Under the pieces are notes generated by a model. The model was not told the origin of the DNA, did not search any database, and worked only from the letters and a program-made list of their open reading frames with translations. From a virus, in the IMG/VR virus record IMGVR_UViG_3300045988_114239: a stretch of DNA of 64,000 nucleotides. One strand, 5' to 3'. The position numbers and the translations under genes were made by a program. Below, one piece after another: positions 217 to 1,920 of this stretch; position 1 is the stretch's first letter; each line of letters begins with the position of its first letter.

Positions 217-486
217 ATGGATGGTATGAACGTATATGACTTTGCGCCTGACTTAGATTTGAGTAAGGAGGTAGAAGGTTCTATTTTCGGGGTAAAAGGA
301 ATAGAAGGCAGTGATGGAATAGTATATGCTAAGGTAGTTAGCTGTGTAGACGTTAAGGATTACAGTTGTGATAGGTGTATTTTTTATGATTGTTATAAGG
401 ATAAATGTTTATTATCGCGTAGTAATAGTTGTATAGATGGAGATTGGCTTTGTAGGTACGAACAGGCTGCCATAGAGGGGGAGTAG
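217..486 (+). CDS. Cys-rich small protein (CxxCIFY..C..C..DWLC); paralog of 1672-1920
   Basis: 89-aa ORF. Its N-terminus and Cys motif align with ORF 1672-1920. Confidence 0.6.
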   Translation: MDGMNVYDFAPDLDLSKEVEGSIFGVKGIEGSDGIVYAKVVSCVDVKDYSCDRCIFYDCYKDKCLLSRSNSCIDGDWLCRYEQAAIEGE

Positions 487-716
487 GCGGCGCCTTGGGC
501 TAAGGCCTGCGGTTGTAGGTGGAACGTAGGTCGGAGCAGAGCCGGAACAGTTTATTGTGGAACGTGAAAAGAACAGATAAAAAAGGAGGAGATATGAAAA
601 AGATATTTAAGACATTCTCTATTATGCTTGTCATAGAAATAGTGTTGATAGCTATTTTAGATGCTATGGCGTAAGTGAGAAAAATTTCTTCATTAATTTT
701 CTTATGCTTTAGACAG

Positions 717-798
717 AATGCTCCCGTCTGCGAAGATCGGAGCATTTGCTTTATGGGATTCATGGTGCGGTAGGTCGGTTCGATTCCGGCGATCTCAC
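717..798 (+). ncRNA. tRNA-like structured element 1: 7-bp hairpin 717-744, acceptor-like stem 754-760/791-797, T-arm GTCGG-TTCGATT-CCGGC 774-790; no D or anticodon arm
   Basis: T-arm consensus GGTTCGATTCC. It lies in a 340-bp ORF-free gap. The 3' motif ATCTCACA is shared with element 2. No canonical cloverleaf could be folded by hand. Confidence 0.45.
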
Positions 799-827
799 AC
801 AATATTAAAAACAAAGGAGGAAAGAAA

Positions 828-1169
828 ATGAAAGACAGTATTACATTACATCCAGAACACGGATTGAATCCGTCTATAGAAGTCTGCATGATATGTGGAG
901 AAGAGATGGGGATTGCTTTATTAGGGAATAACATCAAAGGGCAGGCGCCGCATCATATATGCACGGGAGAAATATGTGACAATTGCAAAAAGATAATAGA
1001 TGACGGAGGTTGTTTTATTATCGAAGTCGAGGATGGATCAGATCAAAAGAATCCGTATCGTACAGGGAGATATTGTGCGATAAAGAAAGAAGCAGCAAAG
1101 AAAATACTTGGACAGGAGCATAGTGTTGTGTACATGGAAAAGTCTGCATACAGTCAAATAATACCATAA
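828..1169 (+). CDS. hypothetical Zn-binding protein (CMICG...CDNC)
   Basis: 113-aa ORF with an AAAGGAGG Shine-Dalgarno 6 nt upstream. Confidence 0.65.
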   Translation: MKDSITLHPEHGLNPSIEVCMICGEEMGIALLGNNIKGQAPHHICTGEICDNCKKIIDDGGCFIIEVEDGSDQKNPYRTGRYCAIKKEAAKKILGQEHSVVYMEKSAYSQIIP

Positions 1170-1183
1170 AAATAAAGAAGGAT

Positions 1184-1498
1184 ATGTTTACAAAAGAAGA
1201 GCGATTATTCATATGGAAAAAGGTATATGAGATGATTGATAGGTTAGAGGATGGGGAATACATATGTGTTGCGTTAAGAAATGTAGTGTTTATGTATCTC
1301 AAAACACATAAAAATATATATGAGTTTCGTTCAGACGAAATGGTGAGAATATATTTCCCGGAATTGGAGGAGAAGATAAGTATGGCCACAGAACCAGAGG
1401 AAACAAGAACGTTTTATGGGTGGTTTGGTTGTCTTAGTCCAGAAACGAAGGAGGTGAGGCTGAATATTGTGAAAGATATTATAAAAGAATTAGAATAG
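1184..1498 (+). CDS. hypothetical protein
   Basis: 104-aa ORF, tightly spaced after the previous gene. Confidence 0.55.
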   Translation: MFTKEERLFIWKKVYEMIDRLEDGEYICVALRNVVFMYLKTHKNIYEFRSDEMVRIYFPELEEKISMATEPEETRTFYGWFGCLSPETKEVRLNIVKDIIKELE

Positions 1499-1544
1499 TA
1501 TTTTTGTTAATCTATTTTATTCATCAAATTAAGTTTTGGGTTTT

Positions 1545-1651
1545 GGCATGTCGGTTCGTGAGGATAGACATGCCTATTTCTGTATCATAGAGGGATGACG
1601 CGGCGTGCCGGTGCGTATGTGCCGGTCCTGGTTCGATTCTGGGCATCTCAC
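1545..1651 (+). ncRNA. tRNA-like structured element 2: 8-bp hairpin 1545-1574, acceptor-like stem 1590-1597/1644-1651, inner hairpin 1608-1625, T-arm CCTGG-TTCGATT-CTGGG 1627-1643
   Basis: Paralogous to element 1, with the same T-arm and 3' ATCTCACA. It lies in a 173-bp ORF-free gap. Confidence 0.45.
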
Positions 1652-1671
1652 AAACAATAAAACATAATTAT

Positions 1672-1920
1672 ATGGAAGTAATAACATTCGGTCCGAACAT
1701 GGATTTGTCTTCTAAAGAAGCAGGGGATGTATTTAGATTAAAATTGTATGGCATAGAGTATGAGGTCAAAGTAGTTAGTGACGACGAAGAGCCTGTTATG
1801 TTCTGCAAAGATTGTATATTTTTTAACAACACAGGACGGTGTTCACTCTCAGAATCGCAAGACTGGTGCTTAAAAAAGCAAGTTGTTTACTGTAAAATAA
1901 GACATGATGGGGGAATTTAA
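1672..1920 (+). CDS. Cys-rich small protein, paralog of 217-486
   Basis: 82 aa. MDLSSKEAGDVF...KVVSD...CKDCIFF aligns to ORF 217-486. Confidence 0.6.
   Translation: MEVITFGPNMDLSSKEAGDVFRLKLYGIEYEVKVVSDDEEPVMFCKDCIFFNNTGRCSLSESQDWCLKKQVVYCKIRHDGGI

What the first reader, a model, noticed from the sequence alone, without database searches (positions are those of the whole stretch)
217..1920. Duplicated module: Cys-rich small protein plus tRNA-like RNA element, in mirrored order
ORF 217-486 and ORF 1672-1920 are clear paralogs, sharing a DLxLSKEhxG..F..K..G...KVVS...C.xCIFF...C..S.S..C...DW.C pattern. Each is directly adjacent to one of the two paralogous tRNA-like elements. The two pairs bracket genes 828-1498 in mirror arrangement: protein-RNA ... 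RNA-protein. A duplicated unit of a structured RNA plus a zinc-binding small protein suggests a functional RNA-protein pair, for example a tRNA-mimic and its binding or modifying partner, or an anti-defence decoy.
Basis: seen in the sequence. Interest (0 to 1): 0.55.

Follow-up and report, generated by a model that had tools for sequence, protein, structure and literature searches.

The report
Duplicated hairpin plus anticodon-less tRNA mimic
A gut Epsilon crAss-like phage carries two conserved copies of an unannotated RNA module, a stable hairpin followed by a mini-tRNA that lacks an anticodon arm. The two cysteine-rich small proteins nearby are true paralogs but are not tied to the RNA.

Summary
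Both halves of the observation are real, but the proposed link between them is not supported.

**Proteins.** ORFs 217-486 and 1672-1920 are weak but significant paralogs: 36% identity, E=2e-7, with a shared C-x2-C-x8-10-C-x8-C motif.

**RNA.** Two paralogous elements lie on the same strand. Each is a 12-bp GNRA-capped hairpin (716-748; 1545-1574) followed by an acceptor-stem plus T-arm minihelix (754-798; 1591-1651). Each minihelix has a canonical UUCGAUU T loop and no D or anticodon arm. A structural scan finds exactly these two in 64 kb, against 0.1 expected by chance. Both helices are supported by covariation. The module occurs in at least 120 related contigs, and it is more conserved than the flanking genes. 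ARAGORN and Rfam do not call it.

**No pairing.**
- cysB is absent or disrupted in about 75% of relatives that keep RNA B.
- cysA is 230 nt from RNA A, separated by another conserved element and a mini-ORF.
- A divergent clade keeps cysA but has no minihelix A.
- An unrelated environmental phage family has the same module without these proteins.

**Most likely role.** The module is a tRNA mimic in early transcripts that host tRNA-processing enzymes (RNase P, RNase Z, CCA-adding enzyme) would cut out. The cut would leave the upstream RNA ending in the hairpin. This is inferred, not shown.

The parts
217..486 (+). cysA: 89-aa Cys-rich early protein (C-x2-C ... C ... C). Paralog of cysB.
   Evidence: ORF. 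BLASTP against cysB gives E=2e-7. No Pfam or PHROG hit. The family is narrow, with 41 representatives at 50% identity. The AF2 model has pLDDT 62.
487..560 (+). Conserved GC-rich noncoding element between cysA and the mini-ORF. Not shown to belong to the module.
   Evidence: It is 96-99.8% identical across about 100 relatives. Similarity to minihelix A (GTAGGTCGG) is not significant: 129 of 2000 shuffles score as well. No Rfam hit.
594..674 (+). 26-aa hydrophobic mini-ORF with a strong Shine-Dalgarno sequence. It is the gene always found upstream of module A.
   Evidence: Sequence. tblastn finds it at 85-100% identity in nearly all relatives. A 31-aa counterpart is present in L190.
716..748 (+). 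Hairpin A: 8+4 bp stem with a 1x1 internal loop and a GCGA tetraloop, followed by the U-rich spacer UUUGCUUUA.
   Evidence: Fold. On alignment A2, 98.8% of cells are paired, against 44% or less when the partner is slid. Eight of 12 pairs change on both sides.
754..798 (+). Minihelix A: acceptor UGGGAUU/GAUCUCA, 13-nt linker CAUGGUGCGGUAG, T arm GUCGG-UUCGAUU-CCGGC, and C at the discriminator position. No CCA is encoded.
   Evidence: Found by the descriptor scan. It is 93-99.5% conserved. Not called by ARAGORN or Rfam.
799..814 (+). A/U-rich trailer ACAAUAUUAAAAACAA, shared with copy B and with unit X in a divergent clade.
   Evidence: Direct repeat D3. Trailers are compared.
828..1498 (+). Two genes bracketed by the modules: p113 (828-1169, which carries CxxC motifs) and p104 (1184-1498). 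p104 is the gene always found upstream of module B.
   Evidence: ORFs. p113 hits PHROG 11852, of unknown function. Synteny. The pair is deleted in the A/B recombinants L048 and L102.
1545..1574 (+). Hairpin B: same architecture as hairpin A, with a GUGA tetraloop and a different stem sequence. Followed by the spacer UAUUUCUGUAUCAUAG.
   Evidence: A weak match to the terminator hairpin of Bacteroides sRNA BTnc231 (15.1 bits, E=0.43).
1591..1651 (+). Minihelix B: acceptor AGGGAUG/CAUCUCA with an A1xA72 mismatch, linker ACGCGGCGU, a dispensable 8-bp hairpin (1607-1626), T arm CCUGG-UUCGAUU-CUGGG, and C at the discriminator position.
   Evidence: Variants without the hairpin occur in L041 and L074. 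Sub-threshold Rfam matches to the Deinococcus Y RNA tRNA-like part (15.5 bits) and to tRNA-Sec (13.6 bits).
1672..1920 (+). cysB: 82-aa Cys-rich paralog. Together with p65 (1904-2101) it forms a dispensable cassette.
   Evidence: It is absent or disrupted in 67 of 91 relatives. The cassette is flanked by AATAAAAC microhomology. It is fused to p65 in crAssE-Sib and in P0127 and P0154. The AF2 model has pLDDT 73 and no fold match.

Best explanation
The window is the early/replication end of an Epsilon crAss-like gut phage. It holds two paralogous copies of a composite, sense-strand RNA module. Each copy has four parts:
1. a very stable GNRA-capped hairpin;
2. a short U/A-rich spacer;
3. an anticodon-less tRNA mimic, made of a 6-7 bp acceptor stem stacked on a 5-bp T stem with a canonical T loop, joined by a GG-containing linker that could stand in for the D loop;
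4. a conserved CAAUA..UAAAA trailer that runs into the next gene.

**Shown.** The structures exist, they covary, and they are under stronger purifying selection than the neighbouring genes. Gene content varies immediately downstream of each module.

**Inferred.**
- An acceptor/T-arm helix is the minimal substrate of RNase P. There is no terminator after the minihelix. Host tRNA-processing enzymes should therefore cut the polycistronic early RNA here: RNase P at the 5' side of the acceptor stem, and RNase Z or another endonuclease after the discriminator, followed by CCA addition.
- The cut would leave the upstream RNA ending in the protective hairpin. It would release a roughly 45-61 nt tRNA-like RNA and detach the downstream cassette mRNA. 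The logic is the same as in MALAT1/mascRNA or tRNA-mRNA co-transcripts.
- The two Cys-rich proteins are paralogous, probably zinc-binding, accessory early proteins of unknown function. They happen to lie in the same mosaic region and are not obligate partners of the RNA.
For: **Identity of the phage.** The window is 92% identical to crAssE-Sib OR575929. That phage is described in PMC11054128 with six tRNAs, and this region is annotated only as hypothetical proteins.

**Specificity.** The descriptor scan finds only these two sites in 64 kb, against 0.1 expected.

**Structure.**
- Minihelix: 91.8% of cells are paired, against 66% or less with slid partners, and three T-stem pairs change on both sides.
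- Across 19 representative variants, pairs 2:71 to 6:67 and 50:64 to 53:61 are paired in 19 of 19, with several pair types each. This includes a completely different acceptor stem (UCCGGCU/AGCCGGA) in unit X of L190/L191.
- Hairpin: 98.8% paired, and 8 of 12 pairs change on both sides.

**Selection.** Noncoding blocks 681-800 and 1481-1660 are 92-99.8% identical in about 100 genomes, against roughly 85-99% (mostly 87-97%) per 20-nt bin for the flanking ORFs. At least 120 contigs carry the pattern, mostly two copies each.

**Modularity.**
- The upstream gene (mini-ORF or p104) is constant, while the downstream gene varies (p134 or p113 after A; cysB or p77 after B).
- Hairpins of the same type occur without a minihelix at 2370-2403 and in L190.
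- The same hairpin+minihelix arrangement is found in unrelated environmental phages, with compensatory acceptor changes GGGAU/AUCUC to GGAAU/AUUCC.

**Enzymology from the literature.**
- Acceptor/T-stem-loop model hairpins are cleaved correctly by RNase P, and RNase P also processes phage M3 and C4 RNAs and mRNAs (PMC11143913).
- A 7-bp acceptor stem made M. smegmatis YrlA an RNase P and CCA-adding substrate (PMC4201824).
- The phage's own tRNAs also lack an encoded CCA.
Against: - No expression, cleavage or end-mapping data exist. RNase P, RNase Z and CCA-adding recognition is inferred from shape alone.
- Position 1:72 is unpaired in most copies (32 of 44). L190/L191 carry a bulged A in the acceptor 3' strand. 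Either could shift or weaken RNase P cleavage.
- Thermodynamic z-scores of the isolated minihelices are unremarkable (-0.06 and -0.18). MFE folding offers competing pairings.
- A processing signal alone does not explain why the linker (CAUGGUG.., ..GGCGU) and most of the acceptor sequence are so conserved within the main clade.
- Unit X in L190 follows about 800 nt of noncoding DNA rather than a gene. '3'-end formation for an upstream mRNA' therefore cannot be the whole story.
- The hairpins could be efficient terminators, in which case the minihelix would be poorly transcribed.
- A Bacteroidetes-type -7 box (TAAGTTTG) sits just upstream of hairpin B in divergent clades. That would instead make the module the 5' end of a transcript.
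Confidence: 0.5

Rival explanations
1. The excised minihelix is itself the functional product. On this view it is a free-standing tRNA-mimic small RNA that binds or titrates a tRNA-binding factor. The target could be a host defence nuclease or toxin aimed at the acceptor/T-arm region, a tRNA-modifying or CCA-adding enzyme, EF-Tu, or a phage enzyme. Processing would only be the way the RNA is made.
For: - The linker and acceptor sequences are more conserved than a pure RNase P signal needs. CAUGGUG is invariant in type A, and GGCGU recurs in B, X and the L035 family.
- Two or three paralogs are kept per genome.
- The region is early and full of small accessory genes. The genome also carries a Tad2-like anti-defence domain protein.
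- The relative crAssE-Sib encodes PNK/3'-phosphatase and a CCA-adding-like nucleotidyltransferase.
- Element B gives a weak match to the tRNA-like part of Deinococcus Y RNA.
Against: - No partner has been identified.
- No aminoacylation identity set is conserved. G3.U70 becomes A-U or G-C in several lineages, and G-1 is not conserved.
- The acceptor stem is entirely different in unit X. A sequence-specific acceptor-binding target is therefore unlikely across the whole family.
- The nucleotidyltransferase of crAssE-Sib has no match in this window.
- No TROVE/Ro60 protein was seen.
Confidence: 0.25
2. Each Cys-rich protein is the binding or modifying partner of its neighbouring tRNA-like RNA, so that a protein-RNA functional pair has been duplicated.
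For: - cysB starts 20 nt after minihelix B.
- B followed by cysB or cysB' recurs in the divergent clades L189, L190 and L191.
- In the unrelated L035 family, a small CxxC...CxxC (FmdB-like) protein follows the minihelix in 4 of 5 loci.
- p113, downstream of A, also has CxxC motifs.
Against: - cysB is absent or disrupted in 67 of 91 relatives that keep B, through independent deletions.
- cysA is separated from A by two other conserved features.
- cysA is frameshifted or disrupted in about 15 of 93 relatives.
- cysA' occurs without minihelix A in L190 and L191, and without any minihelix in L192.
- All features lie on one strand in the order protein-RNA...RNA-protein, so no block duplication can explain the arrangement.
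- The protein has no RNA-binding fold match or any other fold match.
Confidence: 0.06
3. The elements act at the DNA level. They would be tRNA-derived recombination or integration sites (attP-like), or hotspots that mediate exchange of the small gene cassettes found next to them.
For: - Gene gain and loss occur immediately downstream of each minihelix.
- A/B hybrids with p113-p104 deleted show recombination inside the T-loop repeat (L048, L102).
- tRNA 3' ends are classic integration sites (established knowledge).
Against: - No bacterial genome among 185,579 species representatives has a tRNA or tmRNA with this T-loop/acceptor 3' half. Of 61 hits, 60 are not family members (mostly chance matches without the fold) and one is a misbinned phage contig.
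- No integrase was found in Epsilon crAss-like phages (PMC11054128).
- Cassette junctions show ordinary microhomology (AATAAAAC, ATTAA) outside the minihelix.
- Compensatory base changes argue for selection on RNA pairing, not on a DNA site.
Confidence: 0.07
4. The elements are decaying tRNA pseudogenes sitting next to ordinary intrinsic terminators, with no function of their own.
For: - Phage genomes often carry tRNA remnants.
- Hairpins of the same type occur alone and look like terminators.
- Minihelix A is absent in one clade.
- The 8-bp arm of B is dispensable.
Against: - The elements are more conserved than the flanking coding sequence in about 100 genomes.
- Stems keep pairing through compensatory changes.
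- Both paralogs retain an intact canonical T loop.
- There is no similarity to the phage's own tRNAs.
- The same architecture occurs in an unrelated phage family.
Confidence: 0.05

Closest known systems
RNase P 'model substrate' minihelices, and natural non-tRNA RNase P substrates of phages (phi80 M3 RNA, P1/P7 C4 RNA precursor)
   Same: A coaxial acceptor stem plus T stem-loop without D or anticodon arms is exactly the minimal RNase P substrate. The phage examples are small RNAs embedded in longer transcripts (PMC11143913).
   Different: No 3' RCCA is encoded. Position 1:72 is often mismatched. A GG-containing linker, and sometimes an extra hairpin, sits between the acceptor and T stems. There is no match to Rfam C4 or any other family. 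Cleavage has not been tested.
MALAT1/mascRNA-type 3'-end module (a stabilising structure followed by an RNase P-cleaved tRNA-like RNA)
   Same: The order of parts is the same: a stable protective structure, a short spacer, then a tRNA-like element. Excision of that element would define the upstream RNA's 3' end and yield a small CCA-addable RNA. This comparison rests on my own knowledge of that system.
   Different: That system is eukaryotic and nuclear. mascRNA is a full cloverleaf mimic and the protective element is a triple helix, not a GNRA hairpin. There is no homology, only an analogy of logic.
tRNA-like domain of tmRNA
   Same: Both have an acceptor stem plus T arm joined by a short D-loop analogue containing GG, and no anticodon arm. 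In element B a closed helix occupies the place of tmRNA helix 2. G3.U70 is present in most copies.
   Different: There is no tag ORF and no pseudoknots. G3.U70 is not conserved (A-U or G-C in L009, L023, L063, L189, X and L200). The discriminator is C rather than A, and no CCA is encoded. ARAGORN and Rfam tmRNA models do not match beyond the T arm (6.4 bits).
Bacterial Y RNAs (YrlA, Deinococcus Yrn1) with a tRNA-like module
   Same: These are non-coding RNAs, some phage-encoded, whose T arm and acceptor-like stem mimic tRNA. M. smegmatis YrlA, with a 7-bp acceptor stem, is cut by RNase P and receives CCA (PMC4201824). Element B gives its best structured Rfam match to the tRNA-like part of Deinococcus Y RNA.
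   Different: The score is 15.5 bits against a gathering score of 80. There is no Ro60-binding helix, no GNCGAA motif and no full D arm. No TROVE/Ro60 gene was found in the window ORFs scanned or in the 100 kb of crAssE-Sib annotation read.
Canonical phage tRNA genes
   Same: The T loop is identical to that of real tRNAs, with G53-C61. The acceptor stem is 7 nt long. No CCA is encoded, as with this phage family's own tRNAs.
   Different: There is no D arm and no anticodon arm or anticodon. Total length is 45-61 nt. The elements are not detected by ARAGORN or Rfam.

Membership tests
tRNA (Rfam RF00005 clan / ARAGORN) | 7-bp acceptor stem stacked on a 5-bp T stem, with a 7-nt T loop and G53-C61 | tested here: met
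   The T loop is UUCGAUU, pairs 2:71-7:66 and 49:65-53:61 are kept, and 1:72 is often unpaired.
tRNA (Rfam RF00005 clan / ARAGORN) | D arm, and an anticodon arm with a 5-bp stem and 7-nt loop | tested here: not met
   Only 13 nt (A), or 9 nt plus an 8-bp/4-nt-loop hairpin (B), lie between the acceptor and T stems. ARAGORN reports 0 genes. No Rfam tRNA hit reaches gathering score; the best is tRNA-Sec at 13.6 bits against 47.
tmRNA | Tag-peptide reading frame with pseudoknots between the two halves of the tRNA-like domain | tested here: not met
   There is no room for these in 13-29 nt. ARAGORN tmRNA search is negative. Rfam matches the T arm only, at 6.4 bits.
tmRNA | Conserved G3.U70 alanine identity pair with A73 and CCA | tested here: not met
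   G.U is replaced by A-U, G-C or C-G in 8 of 19 representative variants. Position 73 is C (G or A in unit X). No CCA is encoded.
Bacterial Y RNA / YrlA | Ro60-binding helix or GNCGAA motif, with a neighbouring rsr (TROVE) gene | tested here: not met
   The motif is absent on reading the sequence. No TROVE domain was found among the window ORFs scanned or in the crAssE-Sib annotation read. About 50 kb of that genome was not read.
Bacterial Y RNA / YrlA | Match to the family covariance model at gathering score | tested here: not met
   Deinococcus_Y_RNA scores 15.5 bits against 80, E=1.5, over the tRNA-like part only.
RNase P minimal (acceptor/T-arm) substrates | About 12 bp of stacked acceptor and T stem with a T loop and a single-stranded 5' leader | tested here: met
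   The stack is 7+5 bp. The leader is 8-16 nt and U/A-rich. The definition comes from PMC11143913.
RNase P minimal (acceptor/T-arm) substrates | Actual cleavage at the -1/+1 junction, helped in many bacteria by a 3' RCCA | not testable with these tools
   No CCA is encoded. Cleavage requires an enzyme assay or RNA end mapping.
Intrinsic terminators (for the hairpins) | GC-rich stem-loop followed directly by a U tract | tested here: inconclusive
   The stems are strong (z=-3.8 for the third hairpin). The tails are U-rich but interrupted (UUUGCUUUA, UAUUUCUGUAU). The consensus scan did not list them. In the L035 family the hairpin abuts the minihelix with no U tract.
Phage attP derived from a host tRNA 3' end | Sequence identity with the 3' part of a host tRNA or tmRNA gene, plus an integrase | tested here: not met
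   The genome-contig scan found no tRNA with this 3' half. No integrase was found in Epsilon crAss-like phages according to PMC11054128.
Zinc-ribbon / FmdB-type small proteins (for cysA and cysB) | Two CxxC knuckles, a match to a Pfam zinc-ribbon model, or a matching fold | tested here: not met
   There is one CxxC plus two single conserved Cys. No Pfam or PHROG hit. Foldseek gives no hit with E<0.1 in PDB or BFVD. Metal binding itself was not tested.

The most novel reading that the evidence does not exclude
Epsilon crAss-like phages, and at least one unrelated environmental phage lineage, encode a previously undescribed class of anticodon-less 'mini-tRNA' RNAs. These would be cut out of early transcripts by the host tRNA-processing machinery, receive CCA, and then act in trans. 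They might serve as decoys or sponges for tRNA-directed host immunity or toxins that recognise the acceptor/T-arm elbow, or as hijackers of a tRNA-binding enzyme. On this reading the hairpin+minihelix unit is a portable module that also marks the boundaries where accessory gene cassettes are swapped.
Probability: 0.2. Interest if true: 0.8.

Novelty: new variant of a known kind. Interest (0 to 1): 0.5.

Why it matters
Crassvirales are among the most abundant human gut viruses, and their early regions are almost entirely 'hypothetical'.

This work defines a conserved, structured and unannotated RNA family in that region. The family is absent from Rfam and is missed by tRNA finders. Its parts and boundaries are well defined, and it comes with a concrete prediction: processing by RNase P, RNase Z and the CCA-adding enzyme.

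If the prediction holds, a phage is using tRNA mimicry to punctuate and stabilise its early transcripts. If the novel reading holds, the phage is making tRNA-decoy RNAs.

The work also removes a tempting but unsupported RNA-protein pairing. It shows that the small Cys-rich genes are interchangeable cassettes in a mosaic region.

Tried and rejected
- **Alanine identity (tmRNA/tRNA-Ala-like G3.U70).** Rejected as a conserved feature. A3-U70 occurs in L009 and L023. G3-C70 with G4.U69 occurs in L063 and L189. Unit X has a C-G pair at 3:70. The discriminator is C.
- **Histidine identity (C73 plus G-1).** G-1 is present only in some B variants and is not conserved.
- **Derivation from the phage's own tRNAs.** There is no similarity to tRNA-Arg, Cys, Gln or Met of the family.
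- **attP or a host tRNA match.** The genome scan gave 60 hits outside the family (mostly chance matches without the fold) and one misbinned phage contig.
- **A third, degenerate minihelix at 487-560.** The 9-nt identity with A is not significant.
- **Covariance model R1, built from type-A copies only.** It was overfitted and scored copy B at only 9.9 bits. I used descriptor scans and pair counts instead.
- **MAFFT alignment of A and B together.** It misplaces A's acceptor 5' strand. Those cells were set aside, and I made a hand-parsed table.
- **Sigma-70 promoter and terminator consensus scan.** Uninformative. A Bacteroidetes-type -7 box upstream of hairpin B remains a lead, seen by eye only.
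- **A repeated promoter motif.** TTCATCAAATTAAGTTT is not repeated elsewhere.
- **Protein function.** Pfam, PHROGs, a 5.8-billion-protein search, a 1.84-billion-representative profile search, two AF2 models and Foldseek against PDB and BFVD gave no assignment.
- **Literature.** No description of these elements was found. One search on the misspelt name 'csAssE' was wasted.

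
Full report
**What is there**

The window's first 2.5 kb is 92% identical to the right end of phage crAssE-Sib (OR575929, 151 kb). That phage is an Epsilon crAss-like phage. Its description lists 196 ORFs and six tRNAs, and it annotates this region only as hypothetical proteins (PMC11054128). Downstream ORFs include DUF4494, a primase, DnaB, a PD-(D/E)XK nuclease and a helicase. This is therefore the early/replication arm, and nearly all called genes in roughly the first 33 kb are on the + strand.

**The proteins**

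ORFs 217-486 (cysA, 89 aa) and 1672-1920 (cysB, 82 aa) align at 36% identity with E=2e-7. They cross-hit each other's loci in relatives.

Across both subfamilies and divergent members, the invariant residues are an N-terminal F..(D)LS...G..F block, then C-x2-C-x-F and a third Cys; a fourth Cys is conserved in at least 90% of sequences. The family is narrow, with 41 representatives at 50% identity among 1.84 billion proteins.

It has no Pfam or PHROG match. The AF2 models (pLDDT 62 and 73) match nothing in PDB or BFVD. The paralogy is confirmed. Zinc binding is plausible but untested, and the function is unknown.

**The RNA elements**

ARAGORN finds no tRNA or tmRNA in the window. Rfam finds nothing at gathering score, and only 6-15 bit partial matches when each element is searched alone.

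Reading the sequence, each element has four parts.
- **Hairpin.** It has an 8+4 bp stem with a 1x1 internal loop and a GNRA tetraloop (716-748 and 1545-1574).
- **Spacer.** The spacer is U/A-rich and 8-16 nt long.
- **Minihelix.**
  - Copy A (754-798) reads UGGGAUU, then CAUGGUGCGGUAG, then GUCGG-UUCGAUU-CCGGC, then GAUCUCA, then C.
  - Copy B (1591-1651) reads AGGGAUG, then ACGCGGCGU, then an 8-bp hairpin, then CCUGG-UUCGAUU-CUGGG, then CAUCUCA, then C.
- **Trailer.** CAAUA..UAAAA is shared by both copies and runs into the next start codon.

A descriptor scan for 'T arm plus complementary 7-nt acceptor strands' finds exactly these two sites in 64 kb on both strands. Shuffled sequence gives 0.1.

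**Is the structure real?**

Most carry two copies spaced about 853, 1194 or 1249 nt apart.

On 44 distinct minihelix sequences, 91.8% of cells are paired, against 66% or less when partners are slid. Three T-stem pairs change on both sides.

The hairpin is paired in 98.8% of cells, and 8 of 12 pairs change on both sides. Hairpins A and B therefore share an architecture but not a sequence.

More divergent copies came from three sources: neighbours of distant cys homologues (L189, L190, L191), a second pattern scan (L200, L208), and a descriptor scan (unit X in L190/L191/L193). Adding them gives 19 representative variants. In these, pairs 2:71-6:67 and 50:64-53:61 are paired in 19 of 19, with several pair types each. 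Unit X has an entirely different acceptor stem, UCCGGCU/AGCCGGA.

Position 1:72 is usually unpaired. The noncoding blocks are more conserved (92-99.8%) than the flanking ORFs across about 100 genomes. This is a genuine RNA under selection, not a pseudogene.

**Is it paired with the proteins?**

No, for five reasons.
- Of 91 B copies with enough downstream sequence, cysB is intact in 19, disrupted in 8 and absent in 59, where the 77-aa gene follows directly; 5 have something else.
- The cysB-p65 cassette is bounded by AATAAAAC microhomology, and at least two different deletion junctions are seen.
- cysA lies 230 nt upstream of hairpin A, beyond a conserved GC-rich element and a conserved 26-aa membrane mini-ORF. 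It is frameshifted or disrupted in about 15 of 93 relatives.
- In L190 and L191, cysA' and hairpin A are present but minihelix A is not. L192 has cysA' and no minihelix in the locus.
- All four features are co-directional in the order protein-RNA...RNA-protein. Duplication of a protein+RNA block cannot produce that order.

What is constant is the gene upstream of each module (the mini-ORF, p104). What varies is the gene immediately downstream: p134 is inserted after A in about 40% of relatives, and cysB-p65 follows B in about 30%. Two genomes carry a single A/B hybrid minihelix with p113-p104 deleted.

**Wider occurrence**

An unrelated, higher-GC environmental phage family (L035, L124, L200, L201, L208) has the same arrangement. 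A conserved upstream gene is followed by a 10-bp hairpin that abuts a minihelix. The acceptor is GGGAU/AUCUC or GGAAU/AUUCC, a compensatory change at 4:69. An FmdB-like zinc-ribbon gene follows in 4 of 5 loci.

No bacterial genome among 185,579 species representatives has a tRNA with this 3' half. The Epsilon phages have no known integrase. An attP origin is therefore unlikely.

**What it most likely does**

*Shown:* the shape, the conservation and the context.

*Established knowledge:* an acceptor/T-stem-loop helix is sufficient for correct RNase P cleavage, and RNase P processes phage M3 and C4 RNAs and some mRNAs (PMC11143913). A tRNA-like module with a 7-bp acceptor stem in M. smegmatis YrlA is cut by RNase P and receives CCA in vivo (PMC4201824).

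*Inferred:*
- The minihelices lie in sense orientation with no terminator between them and the next gene. They also lack an encoded CCA, as do the phage's own tRNAs. They should therefore be excised from early transcripts by RNase P and a 3' endonuclease, and then receive CCA.
- Excision would leave the upstream RNA ending at the hairpin and would separate the downstream cassette mRNA.
- No aminoacylation identity is conserved. G3.U70 is lost in several lineages, and G-1 and position 73 vary. This favours recognition by shape over recognition by a synthetase.

I put this processing-module model at about 0.5. A trans-acting decoy role for the excised RNA is at about 0.25. The conserved linker (CAUGGUG, GGCGU) and the retention of multiple paralogs hint at more than a cleavage signal. 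Unit X follows about 800 nt of noncoding DNA rather than a gene, so 3'-end formation cannot explain everything.

**Caveats**

- There are no expression data.
- The isolated minihelices are not unusually stable thermodynamically.
- The hairpins may be real terminators; hairpin B weakly matches a Bacteroides sRNA terminator.
- A Bacteroidetes-type -7 box lies just upstream of hairpin B in divergent clades. I saw this by eye. It would make the module a 5' leader instead.

**Verdict**

The tRNA-mimic idea is supported and the RNA-protein pair idea is not. The RNA module is an undescribed variant of known tRNA-like elements. It is of moderate interest and comes with clear experiments.

Noticed in passing
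window 1-190: There are two exact 21-nt tandem repeats (1-42), two 51-nt repeats (45-146) and a third partial copy (147-190). They share the motif AAAACAGYRTT.TRTAG and lie just upstream of the first ORF. This may be an early-promoter, regulatory or terminal repeat array.
   Followed up: partly
window 487-560: A GC-rich noncoding stretch in an AT-rich genome is 96-99.8% identical in about 100 relatives. It has no Rfam match, and its resemblance to minihelix A is not significant. It is probably another structured RNA or a protein-binding site.
   Followed up: partly
window 594-674: A 26-aa hydrophobic mini-ORF (MKKIFKTFSIMLVIEIVLIAILDAMA) has a strong Shine-Dalgarno sequence. It is conserved in nearly all relatives, and a 31-aa version occurs in the divergent clade (L190:4198-4293). 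Automated annotation is likely to miss it.
   Followed up: partly
window 2370-2403: A third hairpin of the same type (GNRA-like loop, internal mismatches, U-rich tail; folding z-score -3.8) follows the 77-aa gene. It has no minihelix after it, which shows that the hairpin and the minihelix are separable parts.
   Followed up: partly
L190:1868-1975 (also L191, L193): A third hairpin+minihelix unit, 'X', occurs in a divergent Epsilon clade. Its acceptor stem is completely different (UCCGGCU/AGCCGGA), its T loop is UUCGAGC/G, and it has a central 5-bp hairpin with a compensatory change. It has the same CAAUA..UAAAA trailer. It sits after about 800 nt of noncoding DNA and before the first small ORFs.
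   Followed up: partly
L035:11097-11194, L200, L201, L208, L124: An unrelated environmental phage family has a hairpin directly abutting a similar minihelix, placed after a conserved gene ending ...LLGQLGAKPV. In 4 of 5 loci the next gene is an FmdB-like CxxC...CxxC protein.
   Followed up: partly
L195:2832-2898 (also L198, L199, L204-L207, L209, L211): Gut phage contigs of about 39-47 kb carry an aberrant tRNA-like gene upstream of a tRNA-Met called about 160 nt downstream in L195. Its acceptor is UGGAAUG/CAUUCCA with C73. Its D and T arms are normal but its anticodon arm is defective. A hairpin precedes it, and ARAGORN does not call it.
   Followed up: no
window 45402-46664 (+): A TnpB-like ORF has OrfB_IS605 and Cas12f1-like TNB domains. 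This is notable because a review states that mobile elements are absent from Epsilon crAss-like genomes (PMC12386605).
   Followed up: no
window 43211-44074 (-): This ORF has a WDGH domain and a C-terminal Tad2-like (Thoeris anti-defence 2) domain. It is a candidate anti-defence gene.
   Followed up: no
window 30336-30902 (+): This ORF has a dATP/dGTP diphosphohydrolase N-terminal domain. That hints at nucleotide-pool manipulation or a modified base.
   Followed up: no
L212 (OR575929 2615-4409) and L213 (OR575929 137063-137725): The relative crAssE-Sib is annotated with a polynucleotide kinase/3'-phosphatase and an NrnA-like phosphodiesterase near its tRNA cluster. It also has a 220-aa 'polyA polymerase / CCA-adding-like' nucleotidyltransferase. 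The nucleotidyltransferase has no tblastn match in this window.
   Followed up: partly
L048, L102; L001:2711-3136: Two relatives carry a single A/B hybrid minihelix with p113-p104 deleted, from recombination inside the T-loop repeat. In crAssE-Sib and some metagenomic relatives, cysB and the following p65 gene are fused into one ORF.
   Followed up: partly
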